64,000 bases of DNA, taken from NCBI GenBank assembly GCA_044225625.1, contig JBGAII010000003.1:11234-75233 (forward strand). The letters run 5' to 3'. Positions 38,390 to 44,745 of the stretch are shown one piece after another. Made by a program: the position numbers and the translations under genes. Position 1 is the stretch's first letter, and each line of letters begins with the position of its first letter. The DNA is from Rubrivivax sp. Its GTDB lineage: Bacteria; Pseudomonadota; Gammaproteobacteria; Burkholderiales; Burkholderiaceae_C. The notes under the pieces are model-generated. The model did no database searches. It saw nothing but the letters and a program-made list of their open reading frames with translations, and was not told where the DNA came from.

Positions 38390-39207
38390 TTCTGCTTCCT
38401 CCGGTTTCTCATCGGACTGAATTGTTGGCGCAGCGTGGGCAGCCCGACGCCCATCGCTTCGAAACCGCCGTCGGCGGCCAGGGTTTGACCGTTGATGTAG
38501 CTTGCCTCGTCGCTGCACAGGAAGACGACCGCGTTGGCGATCTCTTCCGGCGTGCCATAGCGCTCGAGCGGAATGACGTCGTGGTAGTCCGAGCGGATGG
38601 CGACGCTGTGCACGAGCTTGGCCATGTCGGTATCGACGGGCCCCGGCGCGACGCAATTGACGCGGATGCCGGCGGTGCCGAGCTCCACCGCGTACTGCTT
38701 CGTCAAGTGGATCAGCGCCGCCTTGCTGGTGCCGTACGCGACGCGCAGCGTGCTGGCGCGCAGGCCCGAGATCGACGCGATGTTGACGATGGCGCCGCCG
38801 CCATTCGCCAGCATGTAAGGCGCGCAGGTGTGCGTGCAGTTGAACGCGCCGCCCAGGTTCGTCGCGAGCACCTTCTGCCATTCGGCGAACGACGTCTCCA
38901 GGATCGGCTTGAAGATCGCGATGCCCGCGTTGTTCACCAGTGCGTCGATGCGGCCGAAGTGCTTCGCGACCTTGGCGATTGCCTTATCCACCTGCTTGGC
39001 GTCGGACACGTCGCAGTGGAGCGCGAGCACGCGGGCCTTGTCCGCCAGCGCCTTGTAGGTGGCCTTCAGCGTCTTGCCGTCGATGTCGAGCAGCGCGACG
39101 CGATAGCCTTGCGCGAGGAAGCGCCGCGCGATGGCGAGGCCGATGCCGCGCGCGCCGCCGGTGACGATGGCGACGCGGGACGAGGCGGATGTGCGGGACC
39201 TGGGCAT
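38386..39207 (-). CDS. SDR family NAD(P)-dependent oxidoreductase.
   Basis: Starts MPRSRTSASSRVAIVTGGARGIGLAIARRF with the TGxxxGIG motif. Also NNAG and a YxxxK catalytic motif. Confidence 0.85.
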   Translation of the reverse strand: MPRSRTSASSRVAIVTGGARGIGLAIARRFLAQGYRVALLDIDGKTLKATYKALADKARVLALHCDVSDAKQVDKAIAKVAKHFGRIDALVNNAGIAIFKPILETSFAEWQKVLATNLGGAFNCTHTCAPYMLANGGGAIVNIASISGLRASTLRVAYGTSKAALIHLTKQYAVELGTAGIRVNCVAPGPVDTDMAKLVHSVAIRSDYHDVIPLERYGTPEEIANAVVFLCSDEASYINGQTLAADGGFEAMGVGLPTLRQQFSPMRNRRKQK

Positions 39208-39309
39208 GGCGGCACGGGCGTGAAGACACGGGGTCCGCAGTGTACGACGCCTGCGTTTTGCGCCGCAGCGTCCGCTGGTGGATGAAGCGACCGCCCTGCG
39301 GGCGCGCAC

Positions 39310-39714
39310 TCAGGAATCGCCGTCGACCAGGTTGCGCAACTGCTGGCGCAGCGCCTTGCGCCCGGCGACATTGGTGGCACGATAGGCCGCCAACGCGAGG
39401 TCGAGGAACGCGGCCTCCGCTGCGGACGGACCCGCAGCCGCATGCATCACGTCGAGCCATCCGGCCGGCTGTCCGCAGCAGTGCTCGATTTGCCGCGCGA
39501 GCTTGTCGCCGATGGGACGTGAGGCCTTGACCTGGCTCCACATGCTGGGCGAGATCTGGAGCGCAGCGGCGAACGCCTGTTCGAGGCCCTTGGGCCCGGC
39601 ACCCGCGGCGAACGCCTTCTCGGCGTGTTCGTGGAACAGCCGCAGCACGTTCTGGCGACGGGTGACGGTGACGTTGCTCACGCGGTGTGGCCTCGCTGCA
39701 ACAAGGGACGCCAC
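39310..39714 (-). CDS. Hypothetical small protein, possibly an HTH DNA-binding protein.
   Basis: 134 aa ORF of reasonable composition, with a Cro/CI-like stretch LQISPSMWSQVKASRPIGDKLARQIE. The start codon is uncertain. Confidence 0.35.
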   Translation of the reverse strand: MASLVAARPHRVSNVTVTRRQNVLRLFHEHAEKAFAAGAGPKGLEQAFAAALQISPSMWSQVKASRPIGDKLARQIEHCCGQPAGWLDVMHAAAGPSAAEAAFLDLALAAYRATNVAGRKALRQQLRNLVDGDS

Positions 39715-39731
39715 GCATTGTCGCAGAGGGG

Positions 39732-39760
39732 TTGACGGTGTCGTAAAGAGTCTTTACAGT
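39732..39760 (+). promoter_or_regulatory. Sigma-70-like promoter: TTGACG - 17 nt - TACAGT.
   Basis: Read directly in the low-GC intergenic stretch. It points into a region with no convincing ORF. Confidence 0.4.
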
Positions 39761-39766
39761 CCGCCT

Positions 39767-40038
39767 CCTTGCAATGCAATCTGCATCGTTCGACTGAAGC
39801 TGTGCCCATGACCATTTCGTTCATCGCCCTGCCAACGCGCCCCGAAACGGGTGCGTCCGCGCTCGTTCGCGCGGCGCGCTGTTTTGACGCGCCGAAGCGC
39901 GCGTGCAATGGCGTGCATCGGTTTTATGGACAGCGGTTGGATTGCAACACCCCGGGAAGGCGGCTCGTGTAAACGCAGCCGCCCACGCTCTGTTCGACAG
40001 AGGCCCGGAGACCGCAAGGTTCCGGGCCTTTTTGTTTT
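39767..40038 (+). ncRNA. Candidate small RNA of about 270 nt, bounded by a consensus-like promoter and an intrinsic terminator. Alternatively a leaderless mRNA for a 54-67 aa peptide.
   Basis: The promoter at 39732-39760 and the terminator at 40002-40038 bracket a GC-rich, stem-rich segment. The only ORF (39769..39972) lacks an RBS. Confidence 0.35.
40002..40038 (+). terminator. Rho-independent terminator: GGCCCGGA-loop-TCCGGGCC followed by TTTTTGTTTT.
   Basis: An 8 bp GC stem with an 11 nt loop and a T-tract, read directly. Confidence 0.6.
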
Positions 40039-40494
40039 GCGCATGACCTACGCACGGCAACGTGCGTGACGCGATTGGAAGGATCGCGCCGCGGTGGCAA
40101 CAGGATCGCGGACGCTCTTTGACAATTCGGACGAGGCAACGGCCGGCGCAAGCCGCGCCGCCCGTTGCCTCCACTTCGGGTGTGCCCATGCACTCCGCGA
40201 CCAGGCCACAGGGTGCTGCTGGTCCGGGATGTGCGTGGCCCGCAGCCGGGCCCCGTGCAGCGAAAACACGACGTCCGTCGGGACGCTCGCGCGTGGGCAC
40301 AGCCGAAGTGGAGCAACGGATCGCCGCATGCGCGATCCACGAAATCGCCGCCAAGCCCGAGGCTTGCCGGCAACAGCATCTGTCGTGAAAGGCAAACGCT
40401 CACAGGCCGGGGATTCGCAAGTCCCGCCGGTGCGCGGCAACCGGGTCAGCCCGTCGTTGTCGCGTATGCCGCGCTGCCGGAAGCGATCGATACC

Positions 40495-40553
40495 GGTGAC
40501 ACAGTGGTCTGCCGCAGTGCGCTGGCCAGGTTCGATTCCTGGTGTCACCGCCC
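40495..40553 (+). ncRNA. tRNA-mimic mini-element.
   Basis: A perfect 7 bp acceptor-like stem (GGTGACA/TGTCACC) flanks a 24 nt spacer. A perfect T-arm (CCAGG-TTCGATT-CCTGG) follows, then G and CCC. It is too short to hold D and anticodon arms, so it is not a complete tRNA gene. Confidence 0.35.
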
Positions 40554-40623
40554 CTGGATAGCTCAGTGGGTAGAGCAACGACCTCATCAGTCGTGTGTCG
40601 CGGGTTCGAGTCCGCTCCAAAGC
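40552..40623 (+). tRNA. tRNA-like gene with CAU anticodon (Met/Ile2-type), degenerate and possibly a pseudogene or tRNA mimic.
   Basis: Canonical D-arm (TAGCTCAGTGGGTAGAGC). Perfect anticodon stem ACGAC/GTCGT with loop CTCATCA. T-loop GGTTCGAGTCC. However, the acceptor stem pairs at only 5 of 7 positions (CCCTGGA vs TCCAAAG), the T-stem is 4 bp with an 8-nt loop, position 37 is C, and no CCA is encoded. Confidence 0.4.
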
Positions 40624-40871
40624 CTTGTAAAGGGCCGCAAGGCCAAACGCCGGACGTGCGGCGCGGAACGTTGTACCTGCGCGCGCATCAGCGGCGCCCG
40701 TCCGTGCGGCGAGCACGCGAAGGTTTCGCGGCCACGGCCAGCGGAAGCGGTTCGCAGTCTGAACGCCGCCAACGCGCACCGGGGTTCCGGGCGTTCGCAC
40801 TCGTCGTCCGCGGTCGCCGCTGTAACGGCAACTATTTGTCAACACGCTTCCAACCAGGAAGGAGAACTCCC

Positions 40872-42008
40872 GTGAAGATCAAGCGTGTCACCGTGAAGAA
40901 GAACGAACGTGGAATCCTGCTGCGCAACGGCGACTTCGAGCGCGTGCTGCGCCCGGGCGCGTACTGGCTGTTCACGCTCGTCGACGAGCTGACGGTCGAG
41001 CGCTACGCACTCGAGCAGCCGGCGTTCATCGGCCCGCTGGCCGATTACCTGATGGCGGCCGAGCCGGCCGTCGTCGCGGCGGATTTCGTGCGTGTCGATC
41101 TCGGCGAAACCGAAGTCGGGCTGCGCACCGAGAACGGCACGCTGGTCGAGGTGCTGGCGCCGGGCACCCGTCGCCTGTACTGGAAGGGTCTCGTCGACGT
41201 GCGCGTCGAGGTGATCGACATCGGTGCGACGGCCGCGGTGTCGCCGGCGATCGCGTCGCGCTTCGTGCAGACGCAACTGCGTTCGCGCTCGGTGGCGGGG
41301 CTCGCGGGCGTGGCGCAGGTGCAGGTGCCGGAGTACGGCGCGGCGCTGCTGTGGATCGACGGCAAGGTCGAGCGGCTGCTCGAGCCGGGCTCGTATGCGT
41401 TCTGGAAGTTCAACCGGAACGTGGTCGTGGAGCTGGTGGACCTGCGTCTGCAGGCGCTCGAAGTGACCGGGCAGGAGATCCTGACGCGCGACAAGGTCGC
41501 GCTGCGGATCAACCTGTCGGCCACCTGGCGCTTCACGGACGTGCTGAAGGCCTACCGCGAACTCGCCAAGCCGGCGGAACAGCTGTATCGCGAGCTGCAG
41601 TTCGGACTGCGTTCGGCGGTCGGGACGCGTTCGCTCGACGAGCTGCTGGAGAACAAGACGGTGATCGACGACGTCGTGATCGCGCAGGCGACCGCCAAGC
41701 TCGCAGGCTATGGCCTGAAGCTCGAAGGCGTTGGCGTGAAGGACATCGTGCTCCCGGGCGAGATGAAGACCATCCTCGCCCAGGTGGTCGAGGCCGGCAA
41801 GTCGGCCGAGGCCAACGTGATCCGTCGTCGCGAGGAAACCGCCGCGACGCGTTCGCTGCTCAACACGGCCAAGGTGATGGAGGACAACCCCGTCGCGCTG
41901 CGCCTGAAGGAGCTGGAAACGCTGGAGCGCGTGGCCGAGCGCATCGACCGGATCTCCGTGTACGGGGGCCTGGACCAGGTGCTGAACGGCCTCGTGAAGC
42001 TGCGCTGA
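40872..42008 (+). CDS. Slipin / SPFH (band-7) domain protein.
   Basis: GTG start (VKIKRVTVKKNERGILLRNGDFERVLRPGAYWLF) with a GGAAGGAGAA RBS. SPFH core and a C-terminal coiled-coil region. Confidence 0.8.
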   Translation: MKIKRVTVKKNERGILLRNGDFERVLRPGAYWLFTLVDELTVERYALEQPAFIGPLADYLMAAEPAVVAADFVRVDLGETEVGLRTENGTLVEVLAPGTRRLYWKGLVDVRVEVIDIGATAAVSPAIASRFVQTQLRSRSVAGLAGVAQVQVPEYGAALLWIDGKVERLLEPGSYAFWKFNRNVVVELVDLRLQALEVTGQEILTRDKVALRINLSATWRFTDVLKAYRELAKPAEQLYRELQFGLRSAVGTRSLDELLENKTVIDDVVIAQATAKLAGYGLKLEGVGVKDIVLPGEMKTILAQVVEAGKSAEANVIRRREETAATRSLLNTAKVMEDNPVALRLKELETLERVAERIDRISVYGGLDQVLNGLVKLR

Positions 42009-42105: not shown

Positions 42106-43326
42106 ATGATGGAAACGAACTGGATTCATGAAGACGTGGGCGGCGGCGTGCCGCTCAAGATGTGGACGCGCGGCGTGCCCATCGAGGACGAGGCGAAGCG
42201 CCAGCTGCAGAACACGGCGCGCCTGCCGATCGTCTTCCGCCACATCGCTGCGATGCCCGATGTGCATTTCGGCATCGGCGCGACCGTCGGCTCGGTGATT
42301 CCCACCGTGAAGGCGATCATTCCCGCCGCGGTCGGCGTGGACATCGGCTGCGGCATGATGGCCTGCAAGACGACGCTGACGGCCGAGGACCTGCCCGACA
42401 ACCTGGCGCCGCTGCGCGCGGCCATCGAGCGCGCGGTGCCGCATGGCCGCACGCCCGGCAGCCGCGACCCCGGTGCGTGGCAAACGCCGCCCGGTACGGT
42501 TGGTACGGCATGGGCGCAACTCGAGCCGGCGTTCACGGAGCTCTGCCGCGACTTCCCCAAGCTGGCCAAGACCAACCACATCCAGCACCTGGGCACGCTG
42601 GGCAGCGGCAACCATTTCATCGAGGTCTGCCTCGACGAGGCGGGCGCCGTGTGGTTCATGCTGCATTCGGGCTCGCGCGGCGTGGGCAACGCGATCGGGA
42701 CGATGTTCATCGAGCTCGCGAAGCAGGACGCGCTGCGTCACGAGGCGCACCTGCCGGATCGCGACCTGGCTTATTTCGAGGAAGGCAGCCGTCATTTCGA
42801 CGACTACGTCCGCGCGGTGAGCTGGGCCCAGCGCTTCGCGGCGATCAACCGCGAGGTGATGATGCGGCGCGTGATCGAGGCGACGAAGACGGTGCTGCGC
42901 AAGAACTTCCAGACGCACGTCGAGGCGGTGAACTGTCACCACAACTACGTGCAGAAGGAGCGCCACTTCGAAACCGACGTCTACGTCACCCGTAAGGGTG
43001 CGGTCAACGCGAAGGCGGGTCAGCTGGGCATCATCCCGGGCAGCATGGGCGCGCGCAGCTACATCGTGCGCGGCAAGGGCAACCGCGAGTCGTTCGAGTC
43101 CTGCTCGCACGGCGCGGGCCGCGCCATGAGCCGCGGCGAAGCCAAGCGCCGCTTCACGCTGGCCGACCATCGCGCCGCCACCGAAGGCGTCGAATGCCGG
43201 AAGGACAAGGACGTCATCGACGAGACGCCCGCGGCCTACAAGGACATCGACGCCGTGATGGAGGCGCAACGCGACCTGGTCGACGTCGTGCACACGTTGA
43301 AGCAGGTGGTGTGCGTGAAGGGTTAG
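42106..43326 (+). CDS. rtcB: RNA-splicing ligase RtcB (3'-phosphate/5'-OH RNA ligase).
   Basis: 406 aa with diagnostic RtcB motifs throughout: MPDVHFGIGATVGSV, GVDIGCGM, GSGNHFIE, NCHHNY, GSMGARSYIV and SCSHGAGR. Confidence 0.9.
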   Translation: MMETNWIHEDVGGGVPLKMWTRGVPIEDEAKRQLQNTARLPIVFRHIAAMPDVHFGIGATVGSVIPTVKAIIPAAVGVDIGCGMMACKTTLTAEDLPDNLAPLRAAIERAVPHGRTPGSRDPGAWQTPPGTVGTAWAQLEPAFTELCRDFPKLAKTNHIQHLGTLGSGNHFIEVCLDEAGAVWFMLHSGSRGVGNAIGTMFIELAKQDALRHEAHLPDRDLAYFEEGSRHFDDYVRAVSWAQRFAAINREVMMRRVIEATKTVLRKNFQTHVEAVNCHHNYVQKERHFETDVYVTRKGAVNAKAGQLGIIPGSMGARSYIVRGKGNRESFESCSHGAGRAMSRGEAKRRFTLADHRAATEGVECRKDKDVIDETPAAYKDIDAVMEAQRDLVDVVHTLKQVVCVKG

Positions 43327-43419: not shown

Positions 43420-44745
43420 TCAAGGCACCAGCCGCCGCCCGGGCAAGGCCAGCTGCGGCAGCAGCTTGGGCACGTCGCGCCGCGCGAAGCGCCGAATGCG
43501 CCAACCGTTGACCAGCGCATAGACGATCATCCACAGCGGCAGCGACAACAGCGCCATCAGGAAGCCGCCCACGACAGGCGCCACCATCTTGTCCCGCAGC
43601 AGATAGGTGGAACTGCCCAGTTGCCAGGCGAGCACCAGCAGCGGGACGAAGATCCAGCCGCGCATCGACAGGATGCCGCCGAGCGCATCGTCGATGATCG
43701 TCGCGCGTTCCGCCCGCGTATGGTTGCGGAACAGCACCCATTCGCCTTCCTTGCGCAGGCGCCGGCTGGCGATCAGGCCGGAGATCGAGTCCCCGTTCGC
43801 GGCGCGCAACTCGGCGCCGGTCACGTGGACCGGTAGCGACCCGTTCGCAGTCACGAGGTCGAACGCCTCGTGGTGGCTCGACGACGACTGGCTGGTGCGG
43901 CTCCAGACCCGGCCCCACTGGTCGATCCGCTCGGTGATCGTGGTCGTGGTTTCCGTCCATACGCGGTAGTTGCTGATGGTGCCGGACCGCGCAGCGAGCG
44001 CGTAGCGCCGCAAGCCGGCGCGGATGTACGGCGGCTCGCCGGTCACGTCGAACGGCATCAGCTCGCGCGCGAGCAACAGCAGCAACAGCACGCCGAAGAT
44101 CGCGCAGATCTGCACGGTGGCCTGGCGCTCCAGCGGCGACATCTGCGACCACGCCGACGGCTTGTAGTTCGGGTCCTGCGCCGCGATCCGCTGGCGCTCG
44201 TTCTCGCGCAGCGCCTGGAGGTTCGCCGCGTCGGCGCCCATCGTGTCGAGGTAGAGTTTGTGGAAGCCGGGCGAGAAGTAGCGCTTCAGCAGGTCGTCGC
44301 GCAGTTCGTCGCTGTTCTGGTACGCGTTGAGCCCGCCGACCCATTTCGCGCGCGGCGAGTCCATCGTGTCCTGTTTGGGATCGAACGTGGCGAACGCCTG
44401 TTTCTGCAGGCGCCCCGAGGCTGCGGCGTAGTCGTCGAGCAGCTTGCGCTCGCCGGGCGCGTAGTCGTTGTGGAAGCGACGATTGCCGGCGAGCTCCTGG
44501 ATCATCCGGCGCAGCCGGTTGAGCGCACCGGCCTGGTGTTGCAGCGTGTCCAGCGCGTCCGTCCCCTTCGCGTCGGCGATCACGCGCTCCGCGGTGGGGA
44601 ATTCGGCGAGATACCGCGGGTCCGGGGTGGCGGTGCCGTTGCCCGCCGGCTGCGCGGCGGCGCCGAAGGCGATCGAGAGCAAGGCGGCAAGCAGCAACAG
44701 GCAGCGCGCGGCAGCCCGCGCCGCGGGCAAGGACGATGGAAGCAC
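43420..44745 (-). CDS. Hypothetical membrane-anchored protein with an N-terminal signal peptide and C-terminal TM segments.
   Basis: 441 aa ORF. Starts MLPSSLPAARAAARCLLLLAALLSIAFGAAAQP. Two to three hydrophobic helices near the C-terminus. No recognisable domain. Confidence 0.5.
   Translation of the reverse strand: MLPSSLPAARAAARCLLLLAALLSIAFGAAAQPAGNGTATPDPRYLAEFPTAERVIADAKGTDALDTLQHQAGALNRLRRMIQELAGNRRFHNDYAPGERKLLDDYAAASGRLQKQAFATFDPKQDTMDSPRAKWVGGLNAYQNSDELRDDLLKRYFSPGFHKLYLDTMGADAANLQALRENERQRIAAQDPNYKPSAWSQMSPLERQATVQICAIFGVLLLLLLARELMPFDVTGEPPYIRAGLRRYALAARSGTISNYRVWTETTTTITERIDQWGRVWSRTSQSSSSHHEAFDLVTANGSLPVHVTGAELRAANGDSISGLIASRRLRKEGEWVLFRNHTRAERATIIDDALGGILSMRGWIFVPLLVLAWQLGSSTYLLRDKMVAPVVGGFLMALLSLPLWMIVYALVNGWRIRRFARRDVPKLLPQLALPGRRLVP

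What the first reader, a model, noticed from the sequence alone, without database searches (positions are those of the whole stretch)
39715..40868. Unusually long (about 1.15 kb) non-coding region upstream of the slipin-rtcB pair, containing a promoter/terminator-bounded sRNA candidate
No ORF of plausible composition exists here on either strand; all listed ones are Arg/Pro-rich. The first 330 bp are lower in GC. A near-consensus sigma-70 promoter (TTGACG, 17 nt, TACAGT at 39732-39760) points into a stem-rich segment. It ends at a strong intrinsic terminator (GGCCCGGA...TCCGGGCC followed by TTTTTGTTTT, 40002-40038), which defines a transcript of about 270 nt. The only ORF inside (39769..39972) lacks an RBS. 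Downstream, about 450 bp of GC-rich DNA carries repeated GGCAAC and GATCGCG words before the tRNA-like elements. This looks like a regulatory or non-coding RNA locus, not spacer DNA.
Basis: seen in the sequence. Interest (0 to 1): 0.55.

Follow-up and report, generated by a model that had tools for sequence, protein, structure and literature searches.

The report
Translation-sensing leader of RtcB repair operon
The long "empty" stretch before the slipin-rtcB genes is the control region of an RNA-repair operon, holding a repressor-controlled promoter, a short reading frame whose translation probably decides whether a terminator forms, an unclassified structured RNA, and the remains of a lost tRNA gene array.

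Summary
The promoter (39732-39760), the terminator (40003-40038) and the ~1.19 kb gap are real and conserved. The reading as a stand-alone sRNA is only partly right.

In 46 related Burkholderiales loci and 63 of 65 regulator-anchored metagenome loci, the same promoter-to-terminator unit sits next to a divergent 123-aa regulator with a weak lambda-repressor-like fold match. It lies upstream of tRNA gene arrays (up to 23 genes), HNH, a band-7-associated tRNA-like gene, slipin and RtcB.

The unit always contains a small ORF (window 39808-39972, 54 codons). Its frame is open in 46/46 leaders. Its stop codon (TAG/TAA/TGA) sits in a covarying hairpin loop, and pN/pS is about 0.9, which is the pattern of a leader peptide.

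An invariant CCGGG lies 18 nt before the stop. It matches the terminator's 3' arm and pairs with its 5' arm. This antiterminator is the minimum-energy fold of the nascent RNA in 41/46 leaders.

Best explanation: a ribosome-dependent attenuator that lets transcription through when translation falters.

Downstream in the window lie:
- an rrn-type boxA
- a decayed tRNA-Gly half
- a 145-nt four-way-junction RNA with no Rfam match
- a deletion scar where the array, PcfJ and HNH were lost

Nothing here has been tested experimentally.

The parts
39310..39681 (-). Divergent regulator gene (123 aa), probable repressor with a lambda-repressor-like helix-turn-helix fold
   Evidence: ORF. The identical 123-aa protein and 2349 homologues are all 'hypothetical' with no Pfam domain. 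AlphaFold2 pLDDT is 83, and the best PDB fold matches are all Cro/cI-type HTH proteins (5d50 Rep E = 0.02, ClgR, HipB, cI), though the scores are weak.
39732..39760 (+). Sigma-70-like promoter TTGACG-17-TACAGT of the leader and operon
   Evidence: 1 found vs 0.2 expected. The same promoter is the only site found in L010 1000-4100. It is conserved in about 30 genome loci.
39743..39757 (.). 15-bp palindrome GTAAAGAGTCTTTAC between the -35 and overlapping the -10, the probable operator of the divergent regulator
   Evidence: Near-invariant GTAAAGA[G/C]TCTTTAC at the same place in 30 loci and in nearly all regulator-anchored metagenome loci. Single copy in the window. Binding by the regulator is inferred.
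39808..39972 (+). Leader ORF, 54 codons (MTISFIALPTRPETGASALVRAARCFDAPKRACNGVHRFYGQRLDCNTPGRRLV*)
   Evidence: Homologous ORFs in 46/46 leaders. The frame stays open for at least 43 codons before the Pro codon, while the other frames do not. The stop falls 6 codons after the Pro codon in 41/46, with TAG/TAA/TGA interchanging. pN/pS is 0.5-1.5. No Pfam match. Translation is inferred.
39952..39956 (+). CCGGG (Pro-Gly codons), proposed 5' strand of the antiterminator that pairs with CCCGG at 40004-40008
   Evidence: It matches the core of the terminator's 3' arm. The helix is 89% paired across 46 leaders, against 53% or less in slid controls. It is part of the minimum-energy fold of the nascent RNA in 41/46 leaders, including the window. 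The Pro codon is always CCG or pairing-preserving UCG, apart from one CCA (L039).
39959..39983 (+). Hairpin H1, with the leader stop codon TAA (39970-39972) in its loop
   Evidence: 8 of 9 pairs show compensatory changes across 46 leaders.
39988..40002 (+). Small hairpin H2 (CTCTGT-TCG-ACAGAG) abutting the terminator
   Evidence: 91% paired across 46 leaders.
40003..40038 (+). Intrinsic terminator T: stem 40003-40028, GCAA loop, U-tract 40029-40038
   Evidence: -26 kcal/mol, z = -4.4. 93% paired with compensatory changes. It is the minimum-energy fold of the full leader in 43/46.
40114..40125 (+). rrn-type boxA-like element GCTCTTTGACAA (relatives have GCTCTTTAACAA), preceded by hairpins at 40046-40112
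   Evidence: Unique in the window, 0 expected. It aligns with exact boxA matches in relatives about 60-70 nt after the terminator. NusB/NusE binding is inferred.
40130..40173 (+). Decayed 3' half of the first array gene, tRNA-Gly(GCC). The 5' half and the preceding stem are deleted.
   Evidence: Alignment with intact tRNA-Gly(GCC) genes of L005, L010, L017 and others. ARAGORN and Rfam call no tRNA here.
40169..40313 (+). Conserved structured RNA ('block c'): long closing stem plus three arms (four-way junction), no known family
   Evidence: -93.4 kcal/mol, z = -6.15. 94% paired, 23/47 pairs with double changes, 0/500 shuffles reach this. No Rfam hit at E <= 10. Present in 14/15 long regulator-anchored loci.
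40314..40367 (.). Junction where relatives carry the rest of the tRNA array, sometimes a PcfJ-like gene, and an HNH gene (a deletion scar)
   Evidence: The gap between block c and the pre-slipin block is 63 nt here, against 700-2400 nt in L039, L010 and L023.
40368..40624 (+). Conserved block containing a truncated tRNA-like element (40494-40550) and the band-7-associated tRNA-like gene (40552-40624)
   Evidence: Rfam tRNA 40.6 bits; ARAGORN tRNA-Met(CAT). Conserved in most loci with sufficient upstream sequence; ARAGORN calls a tRNA at this position in about half, with a variable anticodon. The b7a-tRNA was described by Burroughs and Aravind 2016, as cited in bioRxiv 10.1101/312249.
40625..40871 (+). 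5' UTR of the slipin gene, with the conserved motif GCTGTAACGGCAAC (40819-40832) and the RBS GGAAGGAG
   Evidence: Alignment of 25 loci. No sigma-70-like promoter here.
40872..42008 (+). Slipin / SPFH (Band_7) gene
   Evidence: Pfam Band_7, E = 1.8e-32.
42106..43326 (+). RtcB RNA ligase gene
   Evidence: Pfam RtcB, E = 4.7e-130.

Best explanation
The region is the control and RNA-gene part of an RNA-repair operon.

Proposed chain of events:
1. Transcription starts at the promoter 39732-39760. The divergently encoded 123-aa HTH protein probably represses it through the palindrome 39743-39757.
2. The first ~270 nt are a leader carrying a 54-codon ORF (39808-39972).
3. As RNA polymerase proceeds, the CCGGG of the Pro-Gly codons (39952-39956) can pair with the terminator's 5' arm (CCCGG, 40004-40008). 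This closes a three-way junction around hairpins H1 and H2 and prevents the terminator from forming.
4. A ribosome that translates to the stop codon in the H1 loop covers exactly this CCGGG, which lies 18 nt upstream of the stop. The terminator then forms and transcription ends, leaving a ~270-nt RNA.
5. When ribosomes are slow, stalled or absent (translational stress, damaged tRNAs), the antiterminator wins and transcription reads through. It continues into boxA, the structured RNA 'block c', the tRNA-like genes, slipin and rtcB. In relatives it also enters a long tRNA gene array and an HNH gene.

Shown by computation: conservation of all the elements, preservation of the ORF, covariation of H1 and the terminator, the alternative pairing, and the genomic linkage.

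Inferred: translation of the ORF, the direction of the switch, repressor binding and boxA function.

The window carries a reduced form of the island in which the tRNA array, PcfJ and HNH have been deleted.
For: 1. Conservation and linkage:
- The promoter, operator, leader and terminator recur in 46 SPFH-anchored loci.
- The leader tail (ORF end, H1, H2 and terminator) was found in 63 of 65 regulator-anchored metagenome loci.
- It always sits upstream of block c, tRNA arrays, HNH, b7a-tRNA, slipin and RtcB.
- In L131 the terminator lies 29 nt before the rtcB start, and in L093 only block c and a tRNA-like element lie in between.
- No other sigma-70-like promoter was found between the leader and slipin in the window or in L010; the scan found none at all in L017, where the leader's -35 is cut off by the contig end.

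2. The ORF is kept as an ORF:
- 0 in-frame stops in 25/25 leaders, against 44 and 16 stops in the other two frames.
- The frame is open for at least 43 codons in 46/46 leaders.
- The stop sits exactly 6 codons after the Pro codon in 41/46, with TAG 28, TAA 9, TGA 9.
- ORF lengths range from 34 to 66 codons, always in frame.
- pN/pS is about 0.9, so the act of translation is conserved, not the peptide.

3. RNA switch:
- H1 + H2 + terminator are 88.7% paired, with 13 pairs showing double changes; 0/500 shuffles reach this.
- The antiterminator is 89.4% paired, against 53% or less when slid.
- It is the minimum-energy fold of the nascent RNA in 41/46 leaders, and the terminator is the minimum-energy fold of the complete RNA in 43/46.
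- The antiterminator also forms in whole TSS-to-terminator-5'-arm transcripts in 21/25.
- The Pro codon is CCG in all but one of the leaders that keep Pro (CCA in L039), or pairing-preserving UCG.

4. Biological context: in Anabaena, a tRNA L-array, HNH, a slipin gene and rtcB are co-induced by translation inhibitors (PMC8421152, PMC10272220).
Against: - No transcript, ribosome or reporter data exist for any member.
- The antiterminator core is only 5 bp in the window. In 39 of 100 leader tails it has 5 pairs or fewer, and a group of 34 has an A.A mismatch next to the core, so flank covariation is partial.
- The terminator is about 10-15 kcal/mol more stable than the antiterminator state, so the switch must be kinetic.
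- The Shine-Dalgarno is weak in the window (UGAAG) and in some relatives.
- In a 66% GC genome, open frames of ~55 codons are not rare; frame +2 is open in 12/25 leaders.
- The direction of regulation (translation leads to termination) is deduced from geometry only.
- The window's copy has a diverged C-terminus (TPGRRLV vs HPGEGSA) and may be partly degenerate.
Confidence: 0.6

Rival explanations
1. Stand-alone trans-acting small RNA gene of about 270 nt. The promoter and terminator define an sRNA that base-pairs with targets elsewhere, and the ORF is incidental.
For: It has its own promoter and a strong terminator. The leader folds better than shuffled sequence, z = -3.1. Terminated attenuator transcripts can accumulate and sometimes act in trans (general knowledge).
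Against: - Only the ends of the unit are conserved in sequence; the ~200-nt body is too diverged for blastn, so there is no conserved seed.
- The ORF frame and stop position are nevertheless preserved in 46/46 leaders.
- The terminator's 5' arm has a conserved competitor.
- The unit always lies in cis, co-oriented, directly upstream of the same gene set.
- No Rfam family reaches its gathering score.
Confidence: 0.12
2. Ordinary small-protein gene with its own terminator. The downstream RNA genes and slipin-rtcB are transcribed from a separate, unrecognised promoter.
For: The conserved ORF has conserved N-terminal (MK..H.V.T.RP..G) and C-terminal (HPGEGSA) motifs and no indels in the first 22 codons. 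The simple promoter scan covers only sigma-70 consensus sites.
Against: - pN/pS is 0.5-1.5.
- The middle of the peptide varies freely in sequence and length, 34-66 aa.
- The conserved peptide motifs coincide with RNA hairpins: CCC-N5-GGG, and H1 with compensatory changes that alter the peptide, such as GEGSA to RRLV or GEECV.
- No Pfam match.
- In L131 only 29 nt separate the terminator from the rtcB start.
Confidence: 0.1
3. Evolutionary relic. In this genome the island is decaying (array, PcfJ and HNH lost, tRNA-Gly broken), and the leader, although derived from a functional attenuator, no longer regulates anything.
For: The tRNA-Gly 5' half and the array are deleted. The antiterminator is reduced to 5 bp, the Shine-Dalgarno is weakened, boxA has one mismatch, and the leader C-terminus has diverged.
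Against: - The promoter, operator, ORF, H1 (with compensatory changes), H2, the terminator, block c, b7a-tRNA, slipin and rtcB are all intact.
- The antiterminator is still the minimum-energy fold of the nascent RNA.
- Array-less minimal versions recur independently, with different deletion end points (L019, L032). REG-leader-block c-rtcB units are also common, which suggests a stable functional configuration.
Confidence: 0.13

Closest known systems
Ribosome-dependent (leader-peptide) transcription attenuators: trp/his/thr/pheA leaders, and the antibiotic-responsive leader ORFs upstream of resistance genes in Firmicutes
   Same: A short translated ORF lies in a 5' leader, followed by an intrinsic terminator. 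The terminator's 5' arm has an alternative partner, and ribosome position decides which structure forms. As with the antibiotic-responsive class, the default without a translating ribosome is read-through.
   Different: - No sequence homology to any of them.
- No run of regulatory codons.
- The antiterminator's 5' strand lies inside the ORF, 18 nt before a stop codon that sits in a hairpin loop.
- The regulated genes are tRNA genes, non-coding RNAs and RNA-repair enzymes rather than biosynthetic or resistance genes.
- It is combined with a repressor/operator and a boxA.
[quoted passage not shown]
   Same: The same gene set is involved: a long tRNA array, HNH endonuclease, slipin and RtcB. [quoted passage not shown]
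   Different: - In Anabaena the genes are scattered and share TrcR (ribbon-helix-helix) sites. Here they form one island with an unrelated HTH regulator and a leader-peptide attenuator.
- The window itself has lost the array.
- How translational stress is sensed is unknown in Anabaena.
[quoted passage not shown]
   Same: A slipin/Band_7 gene is followed by rtcB and preceded by a tRNA-like gene (40552-40624).
   Different: As far as I can tell, that description does not cover the upstream regulator, the leader attenuator, boxA or the block c RNA. I could not read the paper itself.
RtcR / sigma-54 control of rtcBA in E. coli and Salmonella, with Rsr-Y RNA (YrlA)
   Same: A divergently encoded regulator controls an rtcB operon that also encodes structured non-coding RNAs, and the operon is induced by damage to the translation apparatus.
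   Different: - No RtcR (CARF-AAA+) is present.
- No sigma-54 promoter.
- No Ro/Rsr.
- YrlA matches only weakly, and at the tRNA-like element (18 bits vs gathering score 69).
rrn-operon antitermination leader (boxB-boxA-boxC)
   Same: GCTCTTTAACAA (one mismatch in the window), preceded by a hairpin and placed ahead of long untranslated RNA genes.
   Different: It stands before a tRNA array and RNA-repair operon rather than rRNA, and downstream of a conditional terminator.

Membership tests
Leader-peptide transcription attenuator | Short ORF with a start codon and ribosome-binding site inside the 5' leader | tested here: met
   ORF 39808-39972. Homologous ORFs are open in 46/46 leaders. The Shine-Dalgarno is AGGA-like in most relatives and weak (UGAAG) in the window.
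Leader-peptide transcription attenuator | Intrinsic terminator between the promoter and the regulated genes | tested here: met
   No other sigma-70-like promoter was found downstream. In L131 the terminator is 29 nt from the rtcB start.
Leader-peptide transcription attenuator | Mutually exclusive antiterminator whose formation depends on ribosome position | tested here: inconclusive
   The alternative pairing CCGGG/CCCGG is present and is the minimum-energy fold of the nascent RNA in 41/46 leaders. Its spacing to the stop codon is fixed. However, the helix is short (4-7 bp), flank covariation is partial, and dependence on the ribosome is inferred.
Leader-peptide transcription attenuator | Run of regulatory codons for the controlled amino acid (classical biosynthetic type) | tested here: not met
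   There are no codon runs, and the middle of the peptide is variable. It would therefore belong to the general translation-sensing type, not the amino-acid type.
Leader-peptide transcription attenuator | Regulated read-through demonstrated in vivo or in vitro | not testable with these tools
   No expression data are available.
Trans-acting bacterial sRNA | Independent transcription unit with a conserved sequence (seed) and no conserved ORF | tested here: not met
   The body of the unit is not conserved in sequence, while an ORF is conserved. No Rfam family reaches threshold.
L-array (long tRNA gene array) island | Tandem array of many co-oriented tRNA genes | tested here: not met
   The window has only a tRNA-Gly remnant and the b7a tRNA-like gene. 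Relatives have up to 21-23 tRNA genes. The window is a reduced derivative.
Band-7-RtcB system with b7a-tRNA | Band_7/SPFH gene adjacent to rtcB, with a tRNA-like gene upstream | tested here: met
   Pfam Band_7 and RtcB. tRNA-like gene at 40552-40624. Family description quoted.
RtcR/sigma-54-regulated rtcBA | RtcR (CARF + sigma-54 AAA+ activator) and a GG-N10-GC promoter | tested here: not met
   The divergent gene encodes a 123-aa protein without Pfam domains. The conserved GGCAC motif upstream of slipin lacks a conserved -12 GC.
rrn-type boxA antitermination site | boxA consensus GCTCTTTAACAA in the transcript ahead of long untranslated RNA | tested here: met
   Window GCTCTTTGACAA at 40114-40125, unique, 0 expected. 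Exact consensus in the aligned relatives. Binding by Nus factors is not testable.
Cro/cI (XRE) type HTH repressor | Recognisable HTH_3/XRE domain | tested here: inconclusive
   No Pfam or NCBIfam hit. The AlphaFold2 model (pLDDT 83) matches only Cro/cI-type proteins, with weak scores (best E = 0.02, TM 0.54). A palindromic operator is present.
Rfam families (for block c, 40169-40313) | Match to any curated covariance model | tested here: not met
   No hit at E <= 10 on a 166-nt query.

The most novel reading that the evidence does not exclude
The island has a dedicated translation-damage sensor. The leader ORF reports ribosome progress, and possibly the integrity of particular tRNAs. Only when translation falters does it license a coordinated rescue programme: backup tRNAs, RtcB ligase, slipin, a tRNA mimic, and a previously undescribed 145-nt four-way-junction RNA (block c). 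Block c travels with rtcB even when slipin and the array are absent. It may be an RtcB cofactor or decoy, analogous to the Y RNA that partners Ro.
Probability: 0.35. Interest if true: 0.8.

Novelty: new variant of a known kind. Interest (0 to 1): 0.62.

Why it matters
How bacteria detect damage to the translation apparatus and switch on RtcB and the otherwise silent long tRNA arrays is only partly understood. E. coli uses RtcR. In Anabaena the repressor TrcR is known, but the signal upstream of it is not (PMC10272220).

A leader ORF coupled to a terminator would make the ribosome itself the sensor. This gives a simple, directly testable mechanism for at least ~100 Burkholderiales loci.

The analysis also changes how this region should be annotated. 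It is a reduced tRNA-array island, and it contains an unclassified, strongly covarying RNA linked to rtcB.

Tried and rejected
- Rfam at gathering and at E <= 10 found only the tRNA-like gene. The ctRNA_p42d, Bp2_287 and asX2 hits are sub-threshold matches to the terminator hairpin, and scr5239 is a sub-threshold chance-level hit further downstream. Block c has no hit at all.
- Plasmid BLAST of the region gave one 56-nt tRNA-like match only.
- I first read TTGACA at 40120 as a second promoter. I rejected this because it aligns with boxA in relatives and has no -10.
- I considered a sigma-54 promoter in GGCAAC/GGCAC motifs and rejected it, because no conserved -12 GC is present.
- I considered block c as a Y RNA (YrlA) or tRNA mimic. 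It has no T-loop-like loop and no Rfam support, so it remains unclassified.
- I tested whether the leader ORF is a normal coding gene by pN/pS. It is not, at about 0.9.
- I looked for an upstream anti-antiterminator by folding whole nascent leaders and found none.
- Viral-contig scans for block c found nothing. Scans for the operator found two phage-like contigs without the leader.
- A lookup of the source contig gave only a 1.2-kb read assembly.
- The Burroughs and Aravind 2016 paper could not be opened.
- Literature searches for a leader peptide or attenuator at tRNA arrays or rtcB found nothing.
- The idea that leader codons match the array's tRNA set was judged untestable. By my own rough estimate of amino-acid frequencies in high-GC proteomes (not computed here), those amino acids already make up about 64% of an average proteome.
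Full report
**1. What is in the window**

- The gap runs from the start of a divergent gene to the slipin start (GTG 40872, RBS GGAAGGAG). The divergent gene is 39310-39681 on the minus strand. It encodes 123 aa, like the identical database protein and many of its homologues.
- Pfam confirms Band_7 (E = 1.8e-32) for 40872-42008 and RtcB (E = 4.7e-130) for 42106-43326. It finds nothing for the divergent gene or for the small ORF.
- The promoter TTGACG-17-TACAGT (39732-39760) is the only sigma-70-like site in 39000-41500, against 0.2 expected.
- The hairpin at 40003-40028 plus the run UUUUUGUUUU folds at -26 kcal/mol, z = -4.4.
- GC is slightly lower over 39600-40100.
- At gathering score, Rfam reports only a tRNA at 40552-40623. 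Everything else is sub-threshold, and the hits at about 39870-40090 are resemblances to the terminator hairpin.
- The long Arg/Pro-rich ORFs have no significant family match; the only listed hit is below its cut-off.
- The physical observation therefore holds.

**2. Relatives show what the region was**

- A search with the slipin protein returned 80 loci, mostly from Burkholderiales genomes (73-85% identity).
- BLASTN splits the window's gap into four conserved blocks:
  - the regulator gene plus promoter (39317-39770)
  - the terminator region (39974-40038)
  - a 144-nt block (40169-40312)
  - the last ~500 nt before slipin (40368-40870)
- In relatives the space between the third and fourth blocks is 0.7-2.4 kb instead of 63 nt.
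- ARAGORN shows that this space is filled with co-oriented tRNA genes, up to 21 in L017. They are followed in some loci by a PcfJ-like gene and in most by an HNH gene.
- The island layout is therefore: regulator (-) | promoter-leader-terminator | boxA | tRNA-Gly | block c | tRNA array | (PcfJ) HNH | tRNA-like gene | slipin | RtcB.
- The window, L019 and L032 are array-less versions. Their deletion end points differ.
- This is a proteobacterial counterpart of the 'L-arrays' of Santamaria-Gomez et al. In Anabaena, the L-array, an HNH gene and rtcB are co-induced by translation inhibitors (PMC8421152). The TrcR regulon also includes a slipin gene (PMC10272220).
- The tRNA-like gene before slipin is the 'band 7-associated tRNA' predicted by Burroughs and Aravind (quoted).

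**3. The promoter-terminator unit contains a conserved leader ORF**

- I extracted the unit from 25 loci and later from 46. Each has a small ORF that starts with GTG or ATG after an AGGA-like Shine-Dalgarno.
- The ORFs share the pattern M(K/N)..H.V.T.RP..G..AFVRAA ... HPGEGSA*.
- The window's version starts at ATG 39808: MTISFIALPTRPETGASALVRAAR...TPGRRLV*. It aligns without gaps over the first ~22 codons, and its UGAAG lies where relatives have GGAAG.
- In the 25 leaders the chosen frame has no stops. The other two frames have 44 and 16 stops.
- In all 46 leaders the frame is open for at least 43 codons upstream of the conserved Pro codon. The minimum is 0 and 3 codons in the other frames.
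- The stop lies exactly six codons after that Pro codon in 41/46, and it is TAG in 28, TAA in 9 and TGA in 9.
- ORF length varies from 34 to 66 codons, always in frame.
- Pairwise pN/pS is nevertheless 0.5-1.5.
- An ORF that is preserved while its peptide drifts is the pattern expected of a leader peptide. It fits neither an sRNA nor an ordinary protein gene.

**4. The RNA switch**

- I aligned 46 leader tails (A1).
- The stop codon sits in the loop of hairpin H1, and 8 of H1's 9 pairs show compensatory changes. A small hairpin H2 follows, then the terminator.
- Together these are 88.7% paired, with 13 pairs showing double changes; 0/500 shuffles reach this, and slid controls give 56% or less.
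- The changes that keep H1 paired do alter the peptide. Examples are GEGSA to RRLV in the window, and GEECV or GQGGG elsewhere. The constraint is therefore on the RNA.
- Just upstream of H1 lies an invariant CCGGG (the Pro-Gly codons). It has the same sequence as the core of the terminator's 3' arm, so it is complementary to the 5' arm.
- This antiterminator helix is 89.4% paired, against 53% or less when slid. The flanking pair is U-A in 20 leaders, A-U in 15 and C-G in 1. The next pair is C-G in 35 and U-G in 11.
- Folding alone recovers the antiterminator. When the RNA is cut after the terminator's 5' arm, the minimum-energy structure is the three-way junction (antiterminator closing H1 and H2) in 41/46 leaders, including the window. 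With the 3' arm added, the terminator wins in 43/46.
- The same holds for whole transcripts from the predicted start, in 21/25. No conserved upstream competitor is evident.
- In an enlarged set of 100 distinct leader tails the helix has 7 pairs in 31, 6 in 30, 5 in 32 and 4 in 7. One group of 34 has an A.A mismatch beside the core, so covariation at the flanks is only partial.
- The Pro codon is nevertheless never CCC or CCT; apart from one CCA (L039), it is CCG or the pairing-preserving UCG.

**5. Proposed mechanism (inferred)**

- A ribosome with the stop codon in its A site covers roughly 18 nt upstream of the stop. This figure comes from general knowledge of ribosome footprints.
- That span reaches exactly the CCGGG, which would explain the fixed 18-nt spacing.
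- Efficient translation thus hides the antiterminator's 5' strand. The terminator forms and a ~270-nt RNA is released.
- If ribosomes lag, stall early or fail to load, the antiterminator forms first and RNA polymerase reads through.
- Three observations support read-through as the route to the downstream genes:
  - No other sigma-70-like promoter is found between the leader and slipin in the window or in L010; the L017 scan found no promoter at all, because the leader's -35 is cut off by the contig end.
  - In L131 the terminator is 29 nt from the rtcB start.
  - Anchoring the search on the regulator instead of slipin gives 63 leaders in 65 loci. Of the 15 long loci, 14 have the leader, 14 block c, 12 HNH, 11 tRNA arrays and 8 RtcB.
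- L058 and L059 carry two leaders. One drives tRNAs, b7a-tRNA and slipin. The other drives block c and rtcB.

**6. Other layers of control**

- A 15-bp palindrome, GTAAAGA(G/C)TCTTTAC, lies between the -35 and the -10 in about 30 loci. In the window it is at 39743-39757 and occurs once.
- The regulator has no Pfam or NCBIfam match.
- Its AlphaFold2 model (pLDDT 83) matches only Cro/cI-type HTH proteins, and weakly (best E = 0.02). Repression through the palindrome is a reasonable inference.
- About 60-70 nt after the terminator, the aligned relatives carry GCTCTTTAACAA. I recognise this as the rrn boxA, and the same string is used as 'the boxA sequence of rrnB' in PMC2176067.
- The window has GCTCTTTGACAA at 40114-40125, which is unique in the window.
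- A boxA ahead of kilobases of untranslated RNA makes sense as protection against Rho. This is inferred.

**7. The rest of the gap in the window**

- After boxA the window lacks about 105 nt that relatives have: a long stem and the 5' half of tRNA-Gly(GCC). It keeps a decayed 3' half at 40130-40173.
- Block c (40169-40313) is intact. It folds at -93.4 kcal/mol, z = -6.15, into a long closing stem with three arms.
- Across 29 sequences block c is 94% paired, with 23 of 47 pairs showing double changes; 0/500 shuffles reach this, and slid controls give 50% or less.
- Block c matches no Rfam family even at E <= 10.
- It persists in array-less loci and sits directly between the leader and rtcB in several loci that lack slipin.
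- Positions 40314-40367 are the deletion junction.
- 40368-40624 holds the conserved pre-slipin block with two tRNA-like elements.
- 40625-40871 is the slipin 5' UTR. Its motif GCTGTAACGGCA(A/C)C is conserved even in Acidovorax loci that lack the leader.

**8. Verdict**

- The best-supported model is a translation-sensing leader-peptide attenuator. It is combined with a repressor/operator and a boxA, and it heads an RtcB RNA-repair operon that here has lost its tRNA array.
- The mechanism belongs to a known class. I found no description of it for rtcB or for tRNA arrays in the searchable literature.
- All functional steps remain to be tested.

Noticed in passing
window 40169-40313 (also L005 2183-2329, L093 ~1310-1447): A 145-nt four-way-junction RNA ('block c') with strong covariation, an invariant tandem U.G/G.U in one arm, and no Rfam match. 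It follows the leader in 14/15 long regulator-anchored loci. It stays next to rtcB even where slipin and the tRNA array are absent.
   Followed up: partly
window 40552-40624 and the equivalent position ~330 nt before slipin in the related loci: The anticodon of the band-7-associated tRNA-like gene differs from locus to locus (CAT, GAT, CGT, AAC, CAC, TTT, AGT, GAA, CTC, TGT, GTT, CGC). It is therefore unlikely to be a decoding tRNA. A second, truncated tRNA-like element (40494-40550) precedes it.
   Followed up: partly
window 40819-40832: The motif GCTGTAACGGCA(A/C)C, about 40 nt upstream of the slipin start, is conserved in all 25 loci examined. This includes Acidovorax loci that lack the regulator and the leader. 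It is not a convincing sigma-54 promoter, and its function is unknown.
   Followed up: partly
L058 and L059 (2513-2821 and 5528-5883): These loci carry two leader-attenuator copies. One precedes tRNAs, b7a-tRNA and slipin. The other, with the regulator gene, precedes block c and rtcB. This is a natural split of the operon into two separately attenuated units.
   Followed up: partly
L081 (IMGVR_UViG_3300025912_000055) and L082 (IMGVR_UViG_3300045996_000409): The operator palindrome GTAAAGA(G/C)TCTTTACAGT occurs in two viral contigs, twice in tandem in L081. L082 has the same TTGAC-spacer-operator promoter layout. Neither contig has the leader or any tRNAs. This suggests the regulator/operator pair has a phage-repressor origin.
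   Followed up: partly
leader stop codons, A1 columns 34-37 (window 39970-39972): The leader stop is TAG in 28 of 46 leaders, an unusual preference for high-GC genomes that mostly use TGA. It may reflect loop-sequence constraints or a dependence on RF1.
   Followed up: no
window 40056-40832: GGCAAC occurs 7 times in 0.78 kb, against about 1.1 per kb in the window overall. Two copies form the stem of the tRNA-Gly remnant and one lies in the conserved slipin 5' UTR motif. The others are not conserved in relatives.
   Followed up: partly
L131 430-570: In this locus the leader ORF is deleted. The promoter/operator and the terminator remain, and the terminator lies 29 nt before the rtcB start codon.
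   Followed up: no
window 43714-43803: ARAGORN calls a 90-nt tRNA-Gly(TCC) on the plus strand, inside a 441-aa minus-strand ORF. Rfam does not support it at gathering score, so it is probably a false positive.
   Followed up: no
L023 1674-2879 and 2916-3494 (also L001, L014, L074): A PcfJ-like gene (Pfam E = 1.5e-13) and an HNH endonuclease gene (E = 1.2e-15) are embedded between the tRNA array and the b7a-tRNA. L039 keeps only an N-terminal HNH fragment, and the window keeps nothing.
   Followed up: partly
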